A DNA stretch of 64,000 nucleotides from assembly GCA_963836205.1 (NCBI GenBank), contig CAWIIV010000015.1:352001-416000 (forward strand). Reading direction: 5' to 3'. The position numbers and the translations under genes are program-made. The stretch comes from an uncultured Acidimicrobiia bacterium. Lineage in GTDB: Bacteria > Actinomycetota > Acidimicrobiia > Acidimicrobiales > AC-14. The notes below the pieces were generated by a model. The model was not told where the DNA came from. It did not search any database and saw only the letters and a list, made by a program, of their open reading frames with translations. Below, in pieces: positions 4,204 to 47,429 of this stretch. Within the stretch, counting starts at the first letter, position 1. Each line of letters begins with the position of its first letter.

Positions 4204-7200
4204 TCAGCGGAAGTCGCGCGACCGGGTGGATCCGACGGCCAGCGAGAGGGCCTCGATCGACTCGGCGATGACGTTGGTGACGCCTTCGGCCCGTTCGAGG
4301 CGGCCCCGGATGAGGAGGGCGGGCGACGTCTGGGCCACCCGGCGGTAGGCGGCCCACACCCGAGAGTGGCAGATGACGTTGATCATGCCGGTCTCGTCCT
4401 CCAGGTTGACGAAGATGATGCCGGCGGCGGTGGCCGGCCGTTGGCGGTGGGTGACCAGGCCCCCGACCACCACCCGCCGTCCGGAGCGGACGCCGGCCAG
4501 GCCGGCGGCGCTGACCGCGCCCATCTCGTCGAGGCGGGGGCGGGCGAACTGCACCGGGTGGCGGTCGGCCGAGATCCCGGTCGACCACAGGTCGGCGGCC
4601 GCCACCTCGGGCTCGGTGAGCGCGGGCAGCGGCGGCGAGTCGGCACCCACGACCACGCCCGGCAGGCGGTCGGCGCCGCCCTGCACCACCGCTCCCGCCT
4701 CCCACAGGGCTTCCCGCCGGCCGCCGTCGCGCTCGAAGCAGCCGAACGCGCCCGCGGTGGCCAGGGCCTCCACTGCCGGCAACGGCGCGCCCGTGCGCCG
4801 GACGAGGTCGTCCATCGACGCGTACGGCCGCCGCTCGGCGATGCGCTCGGCGAGCGTGTCGCCCACGTTGCGCACCGACTCGATCCCCAGCCGCACCGCC
4901 ACCCCTCCCCCCTCCGAACTGGTGACACTTTTGGTGGCCCCAGGCACCAGATCCGTCACCGGTTCGGAGCGCCCTGCGAACTGGTGACGGATTTGGTCGT
5001 CCTGACCACCAAATCCGTCACCAGTTCGTTCGAGGGTGGCTTTGGTGGCGCTGCGGTTGACGTCGGGGCCCAAGACCGTCACGCCGTGGCGGCGGGCGTC
5101 GGCGACCAGGGAGTTGGGTGAGTAGAAGCCCATGGGCTGGGCGTTGAGGAGCGAGGCGCAGAAGGCGGCCGGGTAGTGCAACTTCATCCACGCCGATGCA
5201 TAGACGAGGTAGGCGAACGACACCGAGTGGCTCTCGGGGAAACCGAAGTTGGCGAACGCCGACAGCTTCTCGAAGATTGCGTCGGCGGTGGCGCCCACGA
5301 TCCCGTTGACCGCCATCCCCGAGTACAGCCGGCCCCGAAGCGCTTCCATCCGCTCGGTGCTGCGCTTCGACCCCATGGCCTGGCGCAGCTGGTCGGCATC
5401 GCCCGGCGAGAACCCGGCCACGTCGATGGCGATCTGCATCATCTGCTCCTGGAACAGCGGCACCCCCAGCGTCTTCTTCAGGGCCGGCTCGAGCAACGGA
5501 TGCAGATACGTGACCGGCTCCCGCCCGTTGCGGCGGCGGATGTAGGGATGCACCGACCCTCCCTGGATCGGCCCCGGCCGGATCAGGGCCACCTCCACCA
5601 CCAGGTCGTAGAACGTCCGAGGCCGCAGCCGGGGCAGGGTGGCCATCTGGGCCCGGCTCTCCACCTGGAACACACCCACCGAGTCGGCCCGGCACAGCAT
5701 CTCGTAGACGGCGTCCTCCTGGGGGATGGTGGCCAGGTCGGCGTCGATCCCGTGGACGTCGCGGATCAGGTCGAAGCCCAGGTGCAGGGCGGTGAGCATG
5801 CCCAGGCCGAGAAGGTCGATCTTGACCAGGCCCACCGCCGCGCAGTCGTCCTTGTCCCACTGGAGGACGCTCCGGTTCTCCATCCGGGCCCACTCCACCG
5901 GGCACACCTCCACCACCGGGCGGTCGCAGATCACCATCCCCCCGGAGTGGATGCCCAGGTGGCGGGGGAAGCCCTGGATCTGGCGGGCGAGGGCCATGAC
6001 CGGCTCGGGCACACCCACCTCGGCGGGGGTGGCCGAGAGCCGGTAGCCGTCGACCTGCTTCGACCAGGCGTCGAGGGCGCCCGGGGGATGGCCGAGGGCC
6101 CGGCCCATGTCGCGCACCGCCGACTTGGGCCGGTAGGTGATGACGTTGGCCACCTGGGCCGCGTTCTCCCGGCCATACCGCCCGTAGACGTACTGGATGG
6201 CCTCCTCCCGGCGGTCGTGCTCGATGTCGACGTCGATGTCGGGAGGGCCGTCGCGCTCGGGCGACAGGAAGCGCTCGAAGAGGAGCTTGAGCGCCACCGC
6301 GTCGGCGTTGGTGATCCCGAGGGCGTAGCAGACGGCGCTGTTGGCGGCCGAGCCCCGGCCCTGGCAGTAGATGTTGGACCGGCGGCAGAACTGGACGATG
6401 TCCCAGACGATGAGGAAGTAGCCGGGAAAGCCGAGGGCGTCGATCATGGCCAGCTCGTGCTCGATCTGGCGGTAGGCGCCGGGAACCCGCTCCGAGCCCG
6501 GCCCCGGCGGGCCGTACCGAACCTCGGCGCCCCGCAGGGTGAGCTCCCGCAGCCACGACATCTCGGTGTGTCCGGGCGGCACCGGGTAGTCGGGGAGATT
6601 GGGAGCCACCAGGCGCAGGTCGAAGGCGCACGCCCGGCCGATCTCGGCCGCCCGCTCGACCACGCCCGGGTAACGGGCGAAGCGGCGGGCCTGGTCGGCG
6701 CCCGAGCGCAGGCAGGCGGTGGCGGCGGCCGGCAGCCACCCGTCGAGGTCGTCGAGGGACCGGCGGGCCCGCACCGCGGCCAGGGCGGTGGCCAGGGGCC
6801 GGCGGGCGGCGGTGGCGTAGTGGACGTTGTTGGTGGCCACCACGTCGACCCGGGCCCGCATGGCCAGGGCCACCAGGGCGTCGTTGCGGGCCGAGTCGAG
6901 GGGGTCGCCGTGGTCCCACAGCTCGACGGCCACGTTTTCCCGCCCGAAGGCGTCGACCAGCCGGGCCAGCTCCCGGGCCGCGGCCGCGGGACCGCCGGCG
7001 ACCAGGGCGGCCGGCACGGTGCCCTTTCGGCAGCCGGTGAGCACCTGCCACCGCCCGCCGTGGGCCTCGGCCAGGTCGGCCAACGACGCCTTGGGCACGC
7101 CCTTCTCCCCCGCCGCCATGTGGGCCGCGCTGGCGGCCCGGCTCAGGCGGGCGTAGCCGTCGGGATCACGGGCCAGCACCACCAGGTGGCGGCCCTCGGG

Positions 7201-7605
7201 GTCGGCAATCCCCTGCTGCGAGCGGCGGGGGAGGTCGAGGGTGAGCTCGGTGCCGAAGACGGTGGGCACGCCCAGGGCGGTGGCCGCCTCCGCGAAGCGG
7301 ACGATGCCGTAGAAGCCGTCGTGGTCGGTGAGGGCGAGCGCCTCCAGTCCCAGGCGGGCCGCCTCCTCGGCCAGCTCCTCGGGATGGGAGGCGCCGTCGA
7401 GGAAGCTGAAGTTGGAGTGGCAGTGCAGCTCGGCGTAAGGCGTCGAACCTCGGTCCCGGCGCCGGCCCGGCGGCGGCGGCGGGGGGTCGTACGGCGCCCG
7501 CTTGTTGGACCAGGCCGGGCTGTCACCCCCGTCGGCGGTGGGCGGCCGCCCCGACAGCCGCCGCTCGAGCTCGGCCCACGGCAGCGGAGGATTCTCCCAA
7601 CCCAC
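4204..7605 (-). CDS. dnaE2: Error-prone DNA polymerase DnaE2 (ImuC)
   Basis: PHP YAELHCHSNFSFLDGAS, GRGSAANS, PPDIDVD and C-terminal SRDFR; start GTG (VGWENPP). Confidence 0.97.
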   Translation of the reverse strand: MGWENPPLPWAELERRLSGRPPTADGGDSPAWSNKRAPYDPPPPPPGRRRDRGSTPYAELHCHSNFSFLDGASHPEELAEEAARLGLEALALTDHDGFYGIVRFAEAATALGVPTVFGTELTLDLPRRSQQGIADPEGRHLVVLARDPDGYARLSRAASAAHMAAGEKGVPKASLADLAEAHGGRWQVLTGCRKGTVPAALVAGGPAAAARELARLVDAFGRENVAVELWDHGDPLDSARNDALVALAMRARVDVVATNNVHYATAARRPLATALAAVRARRSLDDLDGWLPAAATACLRSGADQARRFARYPGVVERAAEIGRACAFDLRLVAPNLPDYPVPPGHTEMSWLRELTLRGAEVRYGPPGPGSERVPGAYRQIEHELAMIDALGFPGYFLIVWDIVQFCRRSNIYCQGRGSAANSAVCYALGITNADAVALKLLFERFLSPERDGPPDIDVDIEHDRREEAIQYVYGRYGRENAAQVANVITYRPKSAVRDMGRALGHPPGALDAWSKQVDGYRLSATPAEVGVPEPVMALARQIQGFPRHLGIHSGGMVICDRPVVEVCPVEWARMENRSVLQWDKDDCAAVGLVKIDLLGLGMLTALHLGFDLIRDVHGIDADLATIPQEDAVYEMLCRADSVGVFQVESRAQMATLPRLRPRTFYDLVVEVALIRPGPIQGGSVHPYIRRRNGREPVTYLHPLLEPALKKTLGVPLFQEQMMQIAIDVAGFSPGDADQLRQAMGSKRSTERMEALRGRLYSGMAVNGIVGATADAIFEKLSAFANFGFPESHSVSFAYLVYASAWMKLHYPAAFCASLLNAQPMGFYSPNSLVADARRHGVTVLGPDVNRSATKATLERTGDGFGGQDDQIRHQFAGRSEPVTDLVPGATKSVTSSEGGGVAVRLGIESVRNVGDTLAERIAERRPYASMDDLVRRTGAPLPAVEALATAGAFGCFERDGGRREALWEAGAVVQGGADRLPGVVVGADSPPLPALTEPEVAAADLWSTGISADRHPVQFARPRLDEMGAVSAAGLAGVRSGRRVVVGGLVTHRQRPATAAGIIFVNLEDETGMINVICHSRVWAAYRRVAQTSPALLIRGRLERAEGVTNVIAESIEALSLAVGSTRSRDFR
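4912..5028. repeat. Two tandem ~52-58-bp palindromes inside dnaE2
   Basis: 4912-4969 has arms CTCCGAACTGGTGAC/GTCACCGGTTCGGAG. 4977-5028 has perfect 21-bp arms CGAACTGGTGACGGATTTGGT/ACCAAATCCGTCACCAGTTCG. Confidence 0.9.
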
Positions 7606-7620
7606 ATCCCACGACTGTAG

Positions 7621-7636
7621 ACGAACATACGTTCGA
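7621..7636. promoter_or_regulatory. LexA SOS box upstream of dnaE2
   Basis: ACGAAC-ATAC-GTTCGA matches the actinobacterial TCGAAC-N4-GTTCGA; 15 bp from the start codon. Confidence 0.9.
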
Positions 7637-7654
7637 CCACCACCGGGCCTCCGG

Positions 7655-8218
7655 CTATTGGACGCACTTCTCCTCGGTGTACACGACCGACGACACCTTC
7701 CACACCCCACCGAACTTGCGCAGCTCCACCCTGACCAGCATGGGTTCGGTGGCGGCGGGGATCACGACCTCACCCGTGGTCTTCGACACCGCGGTGCTCG
7801 AATCCAGCTGGCAGTCGGTGAAGGTGGCCTTGTTGCCGATGATCGTCACCCTTCCGGGGGAAAGCGTGGCCTGGCCTCGAATCTCGATCCCCCGCTCGGC
7901 GAAGTCGGCGACCGACCGAGGCAGGTCGGCCAGACGGGCGCCGGTGAAGTAGTCGGCGGGGTCGCCCGGCGGCCGGCCGCTGAGGAAGGCGTCGAAGACC
8001 GGCCAGTGCTCGGTGTACGCCCGCAGGACGGCGGCCGTCTCGTCGAACTGGTTGGCGGTCGGCGGCGACGGGCCCAGGGTGGTGGTGGCGGTGCCGTCGG
8101 CGGAGCTCGTGGTCGGGGCGAGGCTCGGCTTGGCGTCGTCACTGCGGCAACCGGCGACCCCGAACGCCAGGGCGAGGCTGAGGCCAAGGACGGGAGGGCG
8201 TCGGGGCATGCCCGCCAT
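7655..8218 (-). CDS. Hypothetical lipoprotein
   Basis: Signal peptide ending VAGC, then a Thr-rich linker. Confidence 0.7.
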   Translation of the reverse strand: MAGMPRRPPVLGLSLALAFGVAGCRSDDAKPSLAPTTSSADGTATTTLGPSPPTANQFDETAAVLRAYTEHWPVFDAFLSGRPPGDPADYFTGARLADLPRSVADFAERGIEIRGQATLSPGRVTIIGNKATFTDCQLDSSTAVSKTTGEVVIPAATEPMLVRVELRKFGGVWKVSSVVYTEEKCVQ

Positions 8219-43953: not shown

Positions 43954-44235
43954 CGGACGAGGCGTGCGGGGAGGCCGGGGAGACAGATCGGCAGCCACCG
44001 CGGTTCGCCTCGTCGGGGCTACCGGGGCGGAGGAGACCGTTCCCCTCCAGATCGAGCAGACCTCACACGTCCTCCTCTCAGCGAGCGAGCGACCGGTACG
44101 AGGCGAGTGTGCGCCGAACCGTCGCGGGACTCGATGAGGCATTCGGATCATTGCCTCAGGCAGCGAAGACCGGTGCTGCGTATCGTCGCTGGGTAGGGCG
44201 GATATCGTCCGATGGACGAGAGGAAGGTTGGGACG

Positions 44236-44829
44236 ATGAGGGCGAGGAACTTCAAGATCAAGAGAACGGCGGGGGCACTGCTGGCCGGTGTGGTCGGCAT
44301 GCTGGCGGCGGCGATGTTGACCGCGGCTCCCGGTGCCGCGCAGACCGGCCTGACCAGCGGCGATGCGGTCGCCGCCGACGGCTCCACCGCGTCGGGCACC
44401 GCGTTCGCCGCCGACAACTCGACCGCGTCGGGCGACGCCACCGCCATCCACGATTCGACCGCGTCGGGCACCGCCGTCGCCGTCGACGGCTCCACCGCGT
44501 CGGGATGCGCCCAGGCGTTCGACGACTCCACCGCGTCCGGCAGCGCCATCGCCGTCGGTGGCTCCACCGCGTCCGGCGGGAGCGGGGTGTGCCCGGCGGA
44601 GGCCACGCCGACCGTCCCCACCACCGTCGGCCCATCCGAGACCACGGTCCCCACCACCGCGCCCCCGGCGACGACTCCTCCCGCCACCACCGGGACCACG
44701 CCGGTGTTGGCCCGCACCGGGTCGAGCGTGCTCGCCGTCGCCGCCACCGGCATCGTCGTGGCCCTCGCCGGCGGGCTGCTCCTCGGCTACGCGTCGCGGC
44801 GGTGGCCGGTGGCCTTCTACGGCTGGTAG
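44236..44829 (+). CDS. Secreted repeat protein with LAxTG sortase-type anchor
   Basis: Signal peptide, 6x12-aa GxAxAxxxSTAS repeats, Thr/Pro linker, LARTG + TM + RR. Confidence 0.8.
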   Translation: MRARNFKIKRTAGALLAGVVGMLAAAMLTAAPGAAQTGLTSGDAVAADGSTASGTAFAADNSTASGDATAIHDSTASGTAVAVDGSTASGCAQAFDDSTASGSAIAVGGSTASGGSGVCPAEATPTVPTTVGPSETTVPTTAPPATTPPATTGTTPVLARTGSSVLAVAATGIVVALAGGLLLGYASRRWPVAFYGW

Positions 44830-44835
44830 CGGGCG

Positions 44836-46623
44836 TCAGTCATAGGTGGCCTCCACCGCCCACCGGCCACCTTCGACCACCAGCAGGTAGGCGGCGCCGT
44901 CGGCGGTGACGACCTGGGTGCGAGCCCGGCGGCGGTGGGCCGCCGGGTCCCACCATCGCTCGTCGACCGGCCACGGCCCGGCCCACGCCACCACGTCGGC
45001 CGGCGGCCGTCCCGCGACCGCCACCCGGGCGGGCGGGGCCGACACCGTCGCCCGGCCGGTGACCGCCACCACCCGGCCGGCGCCGTCGAGCACCTCCACC
45101 GGCGGGGGGACGGGGTGGACGGTGGCCGGTGCCGGCGGGGGGATTCGACCCGGCCACGGGGGGACGACGGCCGTTCCCTCGGCGAACTGAGGGTTCGGCG
45201 GCGGCGAGGGAGCGTCGCCCCACGGGACCAGGCGGGCCTGCTCCCACGGCCCTCGGCCCCCGGCGAGAGTGGCGGTGACCACCGACTCGGGACCGAGGAC
45301 GCCCTGCACCCGGGCCAGAGCCCGGGCGGCCCGCTCGGCGGCGGCCCGGTCGCCGCCCCAGAAGCCCAGTTGGCGACCATCGTCAGGCCCCACCTCGTCG
45401 GGCGTGAGGCGGAGGAGCACCAGTCCGCCGGTGGGGACGTCGGCGGCGGCCCCCCGCCCGGCCAGCCAGCCGTCGACCTGCCACCGCACCCGTTCGGCGA
45501 GGGCGGCCGGGGTGAGGCCGCCGTCGTGCCGCCATCGGCGGGCCAGCCACTCCCCGTGCTCGGTCTCGGCCTCCACCAGCACCCGGGTGGCGGCCAGGCC
45601 CCGGGTGGCCAGGGCCAGGTGGAGCTGCTCGGCCAGCGACCGGGCCAGGAAGGCCACCGTCTCCAACCGGTCGGCGGGCGGATCGATGGCGGCGGTGACG
45701 GCCAGGTCGGGGGGAGGGGTGCGGGCCGCGACCGGGCGTTCGTCGAGGCCCCGCGCCCGCCGGCAGGCGCCCGCCCCCTCGGTGCCGAACCGGGCCAGCA
45801 CCGCCGGCAGGGGCAGGGCGGCCAGGTCGCCCACGGTGCGGATGCCGAGGCGGACGAGGAGGTCGGCCCGGTCGGTGTCGCCGGTCGTGGCCGCCGCCAC
45901 CGGGAACCCGGCCAGGAACGCCCGGCTCCCGCCGCGGGGCACCACCACCGGCCCGCCGGACGACGTGGACGACAGGGCGGCCAGCTCGGCCGCCAGCCGG
46001 CCGTCGGCCACCCCCACCCGGCAGCGGGGGGCACCGGCCGCAATCCCCGCCAGGACCCCGTCGACCGCCGCGGCCACCTTCGCCGCCAGTGACGCGTCGC
46101 CGCCGAAATAACGGGACGGGCCCCGGGTGGCGAAGGCGCACACCCCCGGACGCACGATCTCCACCCCCGGCGTGAACGCCTCGACGGCGGCCACCACCGG
46201 CTCGAACGCCCGGGCGTCGCGGCCGGGGTCGTCGGCCACCACGACCACCTGCGGGCAACGGGACTCGGCCTGCCGCCGACGCAACCCTCGCTCCACGCCC
46301 TCGGCCCGGGCTGCCTCCGAGCACGCCACCACCCGGTTGGCGAAGACCACCGCCACCTTCGCCGCGCCCAACCGAAGACGGTCACCAGTTGCCAGGTGAC
46401 CCGACGCCCCCACCGGGGCCTCTCCCAACTGGTGACGGTTTTGGGGGTCAGGGCCACCGAAAACGTCACCAGTTGCGAGATGATCCGACGCCCCCACCGG
46501 GGCCTCTCCCAACTGGTGACAGTTTTGGGGGTCAGGGCCACCGAAAACGTCACCAGTTGCCAGGTGGCCCGACGCCACCACCGGCCAGTCGGGACAGTGC
46601 ACGACCAGCAGGCGTTCAGTCAC
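44836..46623 (-). CDS. imuB: ImuB, Y-family DNA polymerase-like protein
   Basis: CPDWP N-terminus, GLRRRQAESRCP, LGIRTVGDLAAL, WAGPWPVDERWW, EATYD end. Confidence 0.93.
   Translation of the reverse strand: MTERLLVVHCPDWPVVASGHLATGDVFGGPDPQNCHQLGEAPVGASDHLATGDVFGGPDPQNRHQLGEAPVGASGHLATGDRLRLGAAKVAVVFANRVVACSEAARAEGVERGLRRRQAESRCPQVVVVADDPGRDARAFEPVVAAVEAFTPGVEIVRPGVCAFATRGPSRYFGGDASLAAKVAAAVDGVLAGIAAGAPRCRVGVADGRLAAELAALSSTSSGGPVVVPRGGSRAFLAGFPVAAATTGDTDRADLLVRLGIRTVGDLAALPLPAVLARFGTEGAGACRRARGLDERPVAARTPPPDLAVTAAIDPPADRLETVAFLARSLAEQLHLALATRGLAATRVLVEAETEHGEWLARRWRHDGGLTPAALAERVRWQVDGWLAGRGAAADVPTGGLVLLRLTPDEVGPDDGRQLGFWGGDRAAAERAARALARVQGVLGPESVVTATLAGGRGPWEQARLVPWGDAPSPPPNPQFAEGTAVVPPWPGRIPPPAPATVHPVPPPVEVLDGAGRVVAVTGRATVSAPPARVAVAGRPPADVVAWAGPWPVDERWWDPAAHRRRARTQVVTADGAAYLLVVEGGRWAVEATYD
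46381..46576. repeat. 84-bp tandem repeats containing ~50-bp palindromes inside imuB
   Basis: gtcaccagttgc recurs at 46381, 46465 and 46549; palindromes at 46426-46475 and 46510-46559. Confidence 0.92.
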
Positions 46624-46626
46624 GGG

Positions 46627-47382
46627 TCACCCGACCTCCTGGAAGCCGACGTCACTGCCGCCGACGCCGTCACTTCCGGCAGGGGCCACCGACGCCACCG
46701 CGCCCATCGGATCCGGCAGCCAGAGCAACGCCCGCCGCTCTCGGGACGCCGCCCCCCGACCGCCACCCACCACTTCCACCCGCCGGGCCCGCAGGCGCCC
46801 GTGCCCCGGCCCCGGACCGACCCACTCCGAGCGGACCACCGCCAGCCGGATGTCGGCCGCCTCCGGCCAACCCCCCGCAGCCACCACCAGCACCGACCCC
46901 CGCTCCCGGGCCCGGGCCGCCAGCCGCCGGGCGTCGGCCGGCCGCACCGAACCCGAGCCCGAGCCCGACCCCGACGGCGGCCAGGCCAGGACCACGTCGA
47001 GGGCGTCGAGGAGGGTGGCCACCACCCACGCCCACCCCCCGGGGCCGGTGGCCGACGGATCCGGCGCCGGCACCAGGGGAAACCGCTCGAGGACGATGCC
47101 GAGCTCGGCCGCCGCCACCAGGCCCAACGCGGGCCGGCCCACCGCCCCGCACCACGACCCCGACGCCGACGCGGCCGCGGCCAGGGCCAACGCCAACGAC
47201 GACGACCCCTCCACCGCCACGACCGATCCCCGCCGCAGCCCCCGCTCGGGCAGCAACGGCTGGAGGGCGGCCAGCACCGGCAGCCGCTGGTCGGCCGCCA
47301 AGGACACCGGCGCCGCCCGCTCCACCAACACGCCCGGGATGGCCGGCTTCCCCATCGCGAGCTCCCGGGCGGCCACGACCAT
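46627..47382 (-). CDS. imuA: ImuA'-like RecA-fold protein
   Basis: GLRRGSVV, SLALAL, AAAELGI.LER, RRLAARARERG; directly upstream of imuB. Confidence 0.88.
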   Translation of the reverse strand: MVVAARELAMGKPAIPGVLVERAAPVSLAADQRLPVLAALQPLLPERGLRRGSVVAVEGSSSLALALAAAASASGSWCGAVGRPALGLVAAAELGIVLERFPLVPAPDPSATGPGGWAWVVATLLDALDVVLAWPPSGSGSGSGSVRPADARRLAARARERGSVLVVAAGGWPEAADIRLAVVRSEWVGPGPGHGRLRARRVEVVGGGRGAASRERRALLWLPDPMGAVASVAPAGSDGVGGSDVGFQEVG

Positions 47383-47413: not shown

Positions 47414-47429
47414 TCGAATGTATGTTCGT
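47414..47429. promoter_or_regulatory. LexA SOS box upstream of imuA
   Basis: TCGAAT-GTAT-GTTCGT (revcomp ACGAACATACATTCGA), 15/16 identical to the dnaE2 box. Confidence 0.85.

What the first reader, a model, noticed from the sequence alone, without database searches (positions are those of the whole stretch)
4912..5028. In-frame palindromic element inside dnaE2, same family as the one in imuB
Seen: two ~55-bp hairpins (one with perfect 21-bp arms) add about 39 codons (TGDGFGGQDDQIRHQFAG...KSVTSS) between ATLE and AVRLG without breaking the frame. The reverse complement AACTGGTGACGGATTTGGTGGTCAGGACGACCAAATCCGTCACCAGTT closely matches the imuB copies 41 kb away. I saw no other full copy in the window. 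Known: Rickettsia palindromic elements insert in frame into genes. Inference: a REP/MITE-like element found here in two partners of the SOS mutasome, giving both a similar TGDxFGGxDxQxxHQ peptide. It could be tolerated selfish DNA or an RNA/DNA-structure control on mutagenesis.
Basis: partly seen in the sequence, partly recalled or inferred. Interest (0 to 1): 0.75.

Follow-up and report, generated by a model that had tools for sequence, protein, structure and literature searches.

The report
Palindromic repeats inside SOS mutagenesis genes
A small palindromic repeat that litters this soil actinobacterium's genome also sits, in frame, inside two genes for damage-induced mutagenesis, and related bacteria show other such repeats in the same two genes, a bias noted before for one of them and still unexplained.

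Summary
Two 48-bp palindromes (window 4917-4964 and 4979-5026) add about 40 codons to dnaE2 between ATLE and AVRLG without breaking the frame. imuB carries two full copies and one partial copy.

The element is not special to these genes. It is a REP-like family (CGAACYGGTGAC...GTCACCRGTTCG) with about 145 copies in 97 arrays in this 4.05-Mb Acidimicrobiia genome. Most copies lie 2-35 nt after stop codons. I found no RAYT, no GTAG tag, no target-site duplication and no Rfam match.

Only 5-6 of the 97 arrays are inside coding sequence: dnaE2, imuB, a PKS, a methyltransferase, an ABC-ABC junction and the uvrC tail. The refuting condition "randomly spread in many CDSs" is therefore not met.

The bias repeats in relatives. 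The same DnaE2 loop holds this family in 7 genomes and two unrelated palindrome families in three others. ImuB holds three families at three sites.

Di Nocera et al. 2013 already reported in-frame REPs in dnaE2 and other repair genes. This is therefore a new family and lineage of a known kind, with imuB and the many-family convergence added.

Best reading: tolerated selfish DNA in disordered surface loops of LexA-boxed genes, which I infer to be rarely expressed. A regulatory role is untested. Interest 0.5.

The parts
4900..5028 (-). In-frame insert in dnaE2 (codons 895-937 of the 1168-codon ORF), made of two palindromic units
   Evidence: The alignment to Taq Pol III alpha jumps from query 888/chain 877 to query 937/chain 885. 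The AF2 fragment model has pLDDT below 50 for model residues 110-143, between strands 103-106 and 148-151.
4979..5026 (.). Element copy b, 48-nt palindrome with near-perfect arms
4917..4964 (.). Element copy a, 48-nt palindrome, less perfect, read in the other open frame (PVT...VTSS)
4204..7605 (-). dnaE2 coding sequence. The likely true start is the GTG at VGWENPP; the database protein P0003 has 1133 aa.
7621..7636 (.). LexA-type box ACGAACATACGTTCGA, 16 nt upstream of the likely dnaE2 start
   Evidence: The LexA consensus used is recalled knowledge.
44836..46623 (-). imuB coding sequence (595 aa, IMS domain)
46370..46571 (-). In-frame insert in the imuB N-terminal loop: 84-nt units, two full palindromes (46427-46474 and 46511-46558) and a truncated third (arm at 46381-46390)
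46627..47382 (-). imuA'-like ORF directly upstream of imuB. It has no Pfam hit and is named by position only.
47414..47429 (.). LexA-type box (2 mismatches to TCGAAC-N4-GTTCGA) upstream of the imuA'-like ORF

Best explanation
The hairpins are copies of a lineage-specific, non-autonomous REP-like palindromic repeat.

Anatomy of the element:
- The core is 48 bp, with invariant 10-bp terminal inverted repeats AACYGGTGAC / GTCACCRGTT.
- It is usually flanked by C-S / S-G.
- The interior is variable but hairpin-prone.

Where it lives: its normal home is the 3' intergenic space just behind stop codons, often as tandem arrays of 60-63-nt units.

The dnaE2 and imuB copies: these are the rare survivors inside genes.
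- They sit at the tips of surface loops: the beta-hairpin before the HhH motif of DnaE2, and the loop after the CPDWPVVA strand of ImuB.
- They are read through in one of the two frames that the element keeps open on both strands.
- They add a disordered peptide.

How they change (inferred): the inserts change by unit duplication or loss and by replacement of their interior, while the frame is kept.

Why they persist (inferred): the elements have no dedicated function in mutagenesis. I take these genes to be dispensable. Both have LexA-type boxes, so I infer they are mostly silent. They also have permissive loops, so a strong hairpin costs little there.

Status of each step:
- Shown: the excess of such inserts in the mutasome genes is real.
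- Not shown: whether that excess comes from tolerance or from an insertion bias.
For: Family and abundance:
- 149 pattern hits, 145 kept, against 0-1 in the reversed genome. They form 97 arrays: 61 single, 28 double, 5 triple, 2 fourfold and 1 fivefold.
- Unit spacing is mostly 60-63 nt (32 of 48 spacings).

Placement:
- Flanking genes are unidirectional for 63 arrays, convergent for 26 and divergent for 8.
- Most of the 115 gene 3' ends that face an array stop 2-35 nt before it. In 5 cases the element's own TGA is the stop codon.

Conservation:
- Arm positions 1-10 are at least 96% conserved in 100 distinct copies, apart from the Y at position 4.
- Inner-stem pairing is only slightly above shuffled partners.

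Reading frames:
- Two frames are open in 285 and 276 of 290 strand-readings. The third is open in 14 of 290.
- 102 of 145 copies have a length divisible by 3.

Permissive loops:
- The DnaE2 loop is 3-9 residues long in the shortest orthologs.
- It maps to a 7-residue stretch of Taq Pol III alpha.
- The insert is predicted disordered between two confident strands.
- The ImuB loop is short in G002, G003, G006 and G016.

Copy number and kind at the same DnaE2 site differ among genomes: 2 units in G000, G002, G003 and G007; 3 in G001; 4 in G004; 1 in G016.

Turnover: G000 and G002 inserts share only 16 of 28 inner nt, where flanking third codon positions are 81.5% identical (P=0.0025).

Distribution: 45-198 pattern hits per strand in each of the 8 genomes of the genus, fewer in 9 other genomes of the same family-level group, and none in the 16 genomes from the other family-level groups of the order that were searched.

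Other hosts are unrelated genes:
- G000: a PKS linker, a Methyltransf_28 protein and an ABC-ABC junction.
- G002: a DSHCT helicase and a FolB-HPPK junction.
Against: The excess in the mutasome genes is too strong for plain neutral scatter.
- In G000, 2 of the 4-6 intragenic arrays lie in 0.17% of the coding DNA (P about 2-4e-5; post hoc).
- In G034, two different low-copy families each have one copy in dnaE2 or imuB. One family has 7 copies and the other about 12 palindromes.
- In G007, the only exact copy of another family lies in imuB.

Tolerance alone does not explain why other dispensable genes with loops are spared.

No expression data were available: no RNA holder was listed. 'Silent, so cheap' is therefore inferred from the LexA-like boxes and from recalled knowledge.

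No mobilising enzyme was identified, so the mode of spread is unknown.
Confidence: 0.6

Rival explanations
1. Insertion bias. The palindromes integrate into single-stranded or strongly transcribed DNA at times of stress. LexA-regulated genes that are strongly induced at that moment (imuA'B, dnaE2) are hit more often, and selection then keeps only in-frame loop insertions. This rival concerns the cause of the excess and is compatible with the element being selfish.
For: - Five unrelated palindrome families occupy the two genes in different lineages.
- Three of them occupy the very same DnaE2 loop.
- Both operons have LexA-type boxes.
- No target-site duplication was found, which is compatible with a single-strand mechanism.
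- PMC3733652 (abstract, section 15 and Additional file 3 read) lists REPs in dnaE2 of four other species and in uvrA/B/D, recBCD and polA.
Against: - Arrays as a whole are not enriched near LexA-like boxes: 6 of 26 against about 6.5 expected.
- The other intragenic hosts (PKS, methyltransferase, FolB-HPPK, helicase) are not known SOS genes.
- Use of the same loop is equally explained by that loop being the only permissive site.
- No transposase was found.
Confidence: 0.15
2. Cis-acting brake. The very stable hairpins inside the mRNA or DNA lower transcription, translation or mRNA life of the mutasome genes, and are kept by selection to limit mutagenesis.
For: - The insert folds at -103.5 kcal/mol, z = -9.95.
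- DNA folds have z of -4 or lower for the inserts of 8 of 29 orthologs.
- Palindromy is kept although the interior turns over.
- Intergenic copies sit where terminators or 3' stabilisers sit.
Against: - Presence is patchy among close relatives. imuB is empty in G002, G003, G006 and G016. DnaE2 has only a short loop in G019, which has 59-61 copies elsewhere in its genome.
- Many orthologs have long non-palindromic loops.
- The same element sits in unrelated genes.
- There is no expression evidence.
Confidence: 0.12
3. Contingency switch. Gain or loss of 60-63-nt units, most of which are not multiples of three, reversibly breaks the frame of dnaE2 or imuB. This would turn induced mutagenesis off and on within a population.
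For: - The dnaE2 units are 62 nt apart.
- Copy number differs among species.
- In G001 the elements put the imuB N-terminus out of frame, with an in-frame TGA.
Against: - All 29 DnaE2 loop regions that were read are open across the site.
- The imuB unit is 84 nt, which preserves the frame.
- The G001 case may be an assembly error in a draft with 6% contamination.
- No within-population length variants of this strain were seen.
Confidence: 0.05
4. Pure coincidence. An abundant repeat happens to lie in two functionally linked genes.
For: About 145 copies give many chances. The pairing was noticed post hoc.
Against: - P is about 2-4e-5 in G000.
- The pattern repeats with other families in G034, G011, G001, G003, G005 and G007.
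- It also repeats in print for dnaE2 (PMC3733652).
Confidence: 0.03

Closest known systems
Intragenic REPs of Di Nocera et al. 2013 (GTAG- and CGTC-tagged palindromic repeats; PMC3733652)
   Same: - Short palindromic repeats that are mostly extragenic and lie near gene 3' ends.
- A minority sit in frame in ORFs, many of them in DNA synthesis and repair genes.
- Additional file 3 (read) lists dnaE2 of O. terrae, S. wittichii, R. palustris and E. litoralis.
- The CGTC class has no dedicated transposase.
   Different: - The sequence family is different and the palindrome is longer: 48 bp with arms of about 21 bp, against stems of 8-9 bp.
- There is no GTAG tag.
- The phylum (Actinomycetota, class Acidimicrobiia) does not occur as a word in that paper: 0 occurrences of 'Actinobacteria'.
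- imuB and uvrC are not in its list.
- The DnaE2 site differs from the four sites listed there.
Rickettsia palindromic elements (RPE)
   Same: Palindromic repeats that insert in frame into protein genes and are translated as extra surface segments (recalled, and as cited in PMC3733652).
   Different: - RPEs are longer.
- RPE-1 is recalled to lie largely inside genes. Here 91-92 of 97 arrays are intergenic.
- Sequence relatedness was not tested; the hosts belong to different phyla.
REPIN-RAYT systems
   Same: High-copy hairpin repeats, vertically inherited within a clade, extragenic, with no target duplication.
   Different: - No Y1_Tnp (RAYT) gene was found in G000 or in any of the 8 genomes of the genus.
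- There is no GTAG motif.
- Each unit is one long palindrome rather than two inverted short REPs.
MITEs
   Same: Conserved terminal inverted repeats, a non-coding interior, many copies.
   Different: - No target-site duplication for k = 2-5 at five boundary offsets.
- No longer element bounded by the same ends was noticed among the 30 exact orphan arms. No dedicated search for such a parent was run.
MIRU-type tandem units of mycobacteria (recalled)
   Same: Tandem arrays of 50-100-bp units between genes of an operon, sometimes open-reading through the junction. Here these are the ABC-ABC and FolB-HPPK junctions and the uvrC tail.
   Different: As I recall, MIRUs are not palindromes. This was not tested here.

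Membership tests
REP / REPIN-RAYT | High-copy short palindrome, mainly extragenic, close to gene 3' ends | tested here: met
   145 copies in 97 arrays. 89 of 97 arrays lie between unidirectional or convergent genes, mostly 2-35 nt after a stop codon.
REP / REPIN-RAYT | Conserved GTAG tetranucleotide at one end | tested here: not met
   The consensus of 100 distinct copies with 10-nt flanks has no GTAG. The conserved ends are C-S-AACYGGTGAC.
REP / REPIN-RAYT | A RAYT (Y1_Tnp, PF01797) gene in the genome | tested here: not met
   0 of 1 genomes and 0 of 8 genomes of the genus. The control search found it in 6 of 14 known genomes. The drafts are 66-95% complete, so absence is not proven.
CGTC-type REP (PMC3733652) | CGTC at one end, stem of 8-9 bp, loop of 4-5 nt, short CCA-like tail, often head-to-head dimers | tested here: not met
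   CGTC does occur inside the right arm of many copies: position 11 is G in 68 of 100. The geometry, however, is one 48-bp palindrome with conserved 10-bp ends, not an 8-9-bp stem.
CGTC-type REP (PMC3733652) | No dedicated transposase | tested here: inconclusive
   No RAYT was found. Other transposase families were not screened.
MITE | Terminal inverted repeats | tested here: met
   Arm positions 1-10 pair in 80-100% of 100 distinct copies (96-100% apart from position 4) and are nearly invariant in sequence.
MITE | Target-site duplication | tested here: not met
   In 61 single-copy arrays, direct-repeat matches never clearly exceed the shuffled controls for k = 2-5 at five boundary offsets.
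MITE | Parent insertion sequence with the same ends | tested here: inconclusive
   Only 14 and 16 exact orphan arms were found, mostly truncated copies or chance matches. No dedicated search for arm pairs 0.5-4 kb apart was run.
In-frame palindromic elements (RPE-like behaviour) | Insertion keeps the host ORF open and falls in a variable surface segment | tested here: met
In-frame palindromic elements (RPE-like behaviour) | The inserted peptide is expressed | not testable with these tools
   No RNA holder was listed, and there are no proteomic data.
DnaE2 / ImuB SOS mutasome genes (the hosts) | DnaE-type domain set; Y-family-like ImuB; LexA-type operator | tested here: met
   - Pfam finds PHP, DNA_pol3_alpha, finger, HHH_6 and OB in P0001, and IMS in P0002.
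- A second DnaE at 36% identity lies on contig C25, the presumed replicative copy.
- LexA-like boxes lie at 7621-7636 and 47414-47429.
- The imuA'-like ORF has no Pfam hit.

The most novel reading that the evidence does not exclude
The palindromes are not passengers but part of how these bacteria handle induced mutagenesis.

In this reading, hairpin repeats of any family are repeatedly recruited into imuB and dnaE2 for one of two reasons:
- as built-in brakes, where stable mRNA or DNA hairpins throttle expression of the error-prone polymerase; or
- as slippage-prone switches that let a population toggle its mutasome on and off.

Alternatively, the mutasome genes are preferred landing sites because the repeats move exactly when these genes are induced. 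That would tie repeat spread to the SOS response.
Probability: 0.2. Interest if true: 0.8.

Novelty: new member of a known kind. Interest (0 to 1): 0.5.

Why it matters
In-frame REPs in DNA-repair genes, dnaE2 among them, were reported in 2013 and never explained.

This case adds three things:
- A new phylum and a new repeat family.
- imuB as a second mutasome host.
- Convergence: five unrelated palindrome families occupy the two genes, and three of them occupy one and the same DnaE2 loop.

This makes the bias hard to dismiss as chance. It also gives a concrete set of natural alleles (empty, 1, 2, 3 or 4 units) with which tolerance, targeting and regulation could be told apart.

It further shows how selfish palindromes lengthen protein loops. 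Several orthologs carry long non-palindromic loops at the same site, which may be decayed inserts.

Tried and rejected
- **Rfam** on 4700-5250: only two sub-threshold matches, mir-1295 at 30.2 bits (cut-off 100) and BLi_r0872 at 19.5 bits (cut-off 61). I take both as chance.
- **Peptide census in the protein database**, using the insert alone (residues 893-937): only the window's own protein passed E<=0.001 among 35 candidates, so it gave no list of host proteins.
- **Earlier scan notes:** none by place or by sequence.
- **Sequencing runs:** no RNA holder listed, and no run holds more than 0.17 of the words. Laying four soil or rhizosphere runs mostly recovered conserved dnaE parts of other organisms. 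One 712-nt contig of run X2 has 70 other letters in place of 4899-5030, which agrees only weakly with variability at the site. No unit-number variants of this strain were seen.
- **Special kinship of the dnaE2 and imuB copies:** rejected.
- **Strong compensatory covariation in the inner stem:** my first impression was not borne out. Pairing is only slightly above shuffled partners.
- **General link of arrays to LexA boxes:** rejected; 6 of 26 boxes against about 6.5 expected.
- **C15:158389**, first flagged as intragenic: it lies upstream of the LytB domain and was dropped as probably intergenic.
- **Four pattern hits** (C1:11656, C8:167336, C24:184451, C25:40442) were dropped by eye as not family-like before all counts.
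- **G002 census:** covers only 50 arrays taken from the 100 listed of 122 matches. 22 matches were not listed.
- **Literature:** three searches. Only PMC3733652 holds both 'dnaE2' and 'repetitive extragenic palindromic'. None of the 12 papers listed joins an Acidimicrobiia term with a REP term. This does not prove that nothing is in print.
Full report
**1. Observation**

The region 4910-5028 holds two direct copies of a 57-nt unit, 79% alike and 62 nt apart. Each copy is itself an inverted repeat. Arms 4977-5001 / 5004-5028 are 25 nt and 96% complementary. Arms 4912-4936 / 4945-4969 are 25 nt and 80% complementary.

The minus-strand ORF 4204-7710 reads through them as ATLE-RTGDGFGGQDDQIRHQFAGRSEPVTDLVPGATKSVTSSEGGGV-AVRLG. 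Pfam finds the PHP, DNA_pol3_alpha, finger, HHH_6 and OB domains in it. A second DnaE at 36% identity lies on another contig. The window gene is therefore the DnaE2-type copy. Its likely start is the GTG at VGWENPP, since the database protein has 1133 aa.

The same arm-gap-arm pattern occurs twice more in the window, at 46429-46472 and 46513-46556. These copies lie inside imuB (44836-46623, minus strand; IMS domain). Two 84-nt units and a truncated third follow the conserved N-terminal strand LLVVHCPDWPVVA.

Shuffled controls gave no matches.

**2. What the element is**

The window lies in a 4.05-Mb draft of 25 contigs with 71-72% G+C, 88.6% complete.

*Census.* I allowed up to 2 mismatches in each 10-nt arm. 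The pattern AACTGGTGAC-N22-30-GTCACCAGTT then occurs 149 times, against 0-1 times in the reversed genome. I dropped four hits by eye as not family-like. The remaining 145 copies form 97 arrays: 61 single, 28 double, 5 triple, 2 fourfold and 1 fivefold. Unit spacing is mostly 60-63 nt (32 of 48 spacings).

*Conservation.* In 100 distinct 48-nt copies, arm positions 1-10 are nearly invariant, with position 4 being Y. The base before the arm is C in 88. The inner stem pairs only slightly more often than shuffled partners would. Conservation therefore lies in the ends, as for a protein-recognised repeat, rather than in a covarying RNA.

*Tests against known classes.*
- Rfam has no family above threshold.
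- No Y1_Tnp/RAYT gene was found in this genome or in any of the 8 genomes of the genus. The control search found it in 6 of 14 known genomes.
- There is no target-site duplication.
- I noticed no longer element with the same ends among the orphan arms.

*Placement.* Flanking genes are unidirectional for 63 arrays, convergent for 26 and divergent for 8. Most of the 115 gene 3' ends that face an array stop 2-35 nt before it. In five cases the TGA of the arm (AAC-YGG-TGA) is itself the stop codon. This is the placement described for REPs (PMC3733652, section 15 read).

*Distribution.*
All 80 listed rows are MAGs labelled Acidimicrobiia, Acidimicrobiales, Actinomycetota or Microthrixaceae.
- Among 40 relatives, a looser pattern gives 45-198 hits per strand in each genome of the genus.
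- It gives 59-61 hits in G019, 29-30 in G016 and 10 or fewer in 7 other genomes of the same family-level group.
- It gives none in the 16 genomes of other family-level groups.
- Interiors differ between lineages (for example ACAACCGCGCC...GGCGCGGTTGT in G016), while the ends stay the same.

**3. Coding versus intergenic copies**

I used third-position G+C as the coding signal; dnaE2 itself gives 0.73/0.52/0.92 for codon positions 1/2/3. By this test only a handful of arrays lie in a continuous frame with coding signal on both sides:
- dnaE2
- imuB
- a polyketide synthase, between the KS extension and the AT domain (RTGDGSGGHGPRNRHQL)
- a Methyltransf_28 protein (RTGDGFGGQDPENRHQF)
- a junction that joins two ABC_tran ORFs in frame

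One further copy forms the last 22 codons of uvrC. One flagged array upstream of a LytB domain is probably intergenic, and I dropped it.

That makes 5-6 of 97 arrays intragenic, where about 87 would be expected from 90% coding density. The element keeps two of its three frames open on both strands (285 and 276 of 290 readings). 102 of 145 copies are divisible by three. The frame filter alone therefore cannot explain the scarcity in genes. Selection or placement keeps the element out of genes.

As a second sample I took G002 (95% complete). I examined 50 arrays taken from the 100 listed of its 122 matches. Four are intragenic: dnaE2, the same methyltransferase site, a DSHCT-domain helicase and a FolB-HPPK junction.

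**4. The mutasome bias is real and repeats**

In G000, 2 of the 4-6 intragenic arrays fall in the roughly 6 kb of imuA'-like, imuB and dnaE2. That is 0.17% of the coding DNA, giving P about 2-4e-5. The question was posed post hoc, so replication in relatives matters more.

*The DnaE2 loop.* I could read the loop between ATLE and AVRLG in 29 of 30 ortholog loci.
- It is 3-9 residues long in the shortest orthologs.
- It holds the AACYGGTGAC family in G000, G002, G003 and G007 (2 units each), G001 (3 units), G004 (4 units) and G016 (1 unit).
- It holds a different palindrome, CGAGGMAATA...TATTKCCTCG, in G034 and G005. G034 belongs to another family-level group and has 7 copies of this palindrome in its genome; G005 has only this one exact copy.
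- It holds a third palindrome, with arm CTTGTCGCGCTCAACCACC, in G011. There the arm gives 61 hits against 9 in the control.
- DNA folding gives z of -4 or lower for 8 of the 29 inserts. Several other long loops are not palindromic.

*ImuB.*
- The N-terminal loop holds the family in G000, G001, G004, G005 and G007.
- That loop is empty in G002, G003, G006 and G016.
- A second site, near residue 395, holds a 39-nt palindrome family TTGGCGCG-N23-CGCGCCAA in G001, G003, G005 and G007. Exact genome copies number 13, 9, 5 and 1. In G007 the only exact copy is the one in imuB.
- In G034 a third site, near residue 192, holds a perfect 24-bp-arm palindrome of yet another family, with about 12 palindromes in that genome.

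G034 thus repeats the whole pattern: both mutasome genes are hit, in frame, by two local low-copy families.

*In print.* Di Nocera et al. 2013 (PMC3733652) already state that intragenic REPs often lie in DNA synthesis and repair genes. I read the abstract, section 15 and Additional file 3. They list dnaE2 of four species, at other positions. Their list has no imuB or uvrC entry.

**5. Structure of the host sites**

The alignment to Taq Pol III alpha jumps from query 888/chain 877 to query 937/chain 885. I built an AlphaFold2 model of residues 790-1010 from a 27-row alignment (A1; unpublished genomes left out). It puts confident strands at model residues 103-106 and 148-151. Residues 110-143 have pLDDT below 50 and no secondary structure. 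The insert is therefore a disordered excursion at the tip of the beta-hairpin that precedes the HhH motif.

**6. Dynamics**

The dnaE2 and imuB copies are not each other's closest relatives: 41/48 identical, rank 8 of 100.

Between G000 and G002 the flanking dnaE2 is 91.8% identical, and 81.5% identical at third codon positions. The inner 28 nt of the inserts share only 16 positions (P=0.0025). The two G002 units are nearly identical to each other. The site and the frame are kept while the content is replaced or homogenised.

In G001 the elements put the imuB N-terminus out of frame. This is either a natural null allele or an assembly error.

**7. Regulation context**

LexA-type boxes lie 16 nt upstream of the likely dnaE2 start (7621-7636, 1 mismatch) and upstream of the imuA'-like ORF (47414-47429, 2 mismatches). 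The consensus I used is recalled.

Genome-wide there are 26 exact CGAAC-N4-GTTCG boxes, against 6 in the reversed control. Only 6 of the 26 have an array within 6 kb, where about 6.5 are expected. The family as a whole is not tied to the LexA regulon.

As RNA the insert folds at -103.5 kcal/mol (z = -9.95).

**8. Verdict**

The best-supported reading is selfish REP-like DNA, tolerated in disordered loops of genes that I take to be dispensable and, from their LexA-type boxes, mostly silent (confidence 0.6).

The excess in imuB and dnaE2 is real. Its cause remains open: tolerance, stress-timed targeting, or selection for a brake or a switch.

The kind is known; the family, the lineage, the imuB host and the many-family convergence are new.

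Unpublished genomes (G008, G009, G015, G017, G021, G023) appear only as rows in the counts. No main claim rests on them.

Noticed in passing
G000:C24:282051-282097 (outside the window): One element forms the last 22 codons of uvrC. Its frame ends in a TGA that overlaps the GTG of the next gene. This is a third DNA-repair gene touched by the family.
   Followed up: partly
G000:C6:152576-152810 (outside the window): A three-unit array sits right after the stop of a YebC-like gene. It lies 64 nt from an exact LexA-type box in front of ruvC-ruvA-ruvB, so it could insulate the SOS operon from read-through.
   Followed up: partly
G000:C6:646043-646182; L175 (G002:C1:178946-180400): Elements lie between adjacent genes with no stop codon left, so two ORFs are joined in frame: ABC_tran + ABC_tran in G000, and FolB + HPPK in G002.
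   Followed up: partly
L051 (G034:C82), imuB near residue 192: A perfect 24-bp-arm palindrome of another family (about 12 palindromes in G034) is inserted in frame, followed by a Gly/Ala-rich stretch.
   Followed up: partly
L044 (G001:C27), imuB N-terminus: Two elements shift the frame by +1 and bring a TGA in frame. This is either a natural imuB null or an assembly error.
   Followed up: no
G000, several contigs: There are other small palindrome families: GGGCATGAAAAGGGGCGCC... (about 7 copies), TTCTGGAGCAAAAACGACA... (about 7 copies) and GTGTGCAGTTATGTGGGATATACCGACATAACTGCACA (4 copies). An 18-nt tandem array lies at C6:66289-66400.
   Followed up: no
window 44212-44829 (+): An ORF next to imuB encodes a signal-peptide-like start, many STASG repeats and a C-terminal LARTG plus hydrophobic tail. 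It looks like a sortase-anchored repeat protein. Its composition was not checked.
   Followed up: no
G016 and G011 loci: In G016 and G011, imuB lies directly upstream of dnaE2. In G000 and G002 the two genes are about 41-44 kb apart, so the cassette was split in this genus.
   Followed up: no
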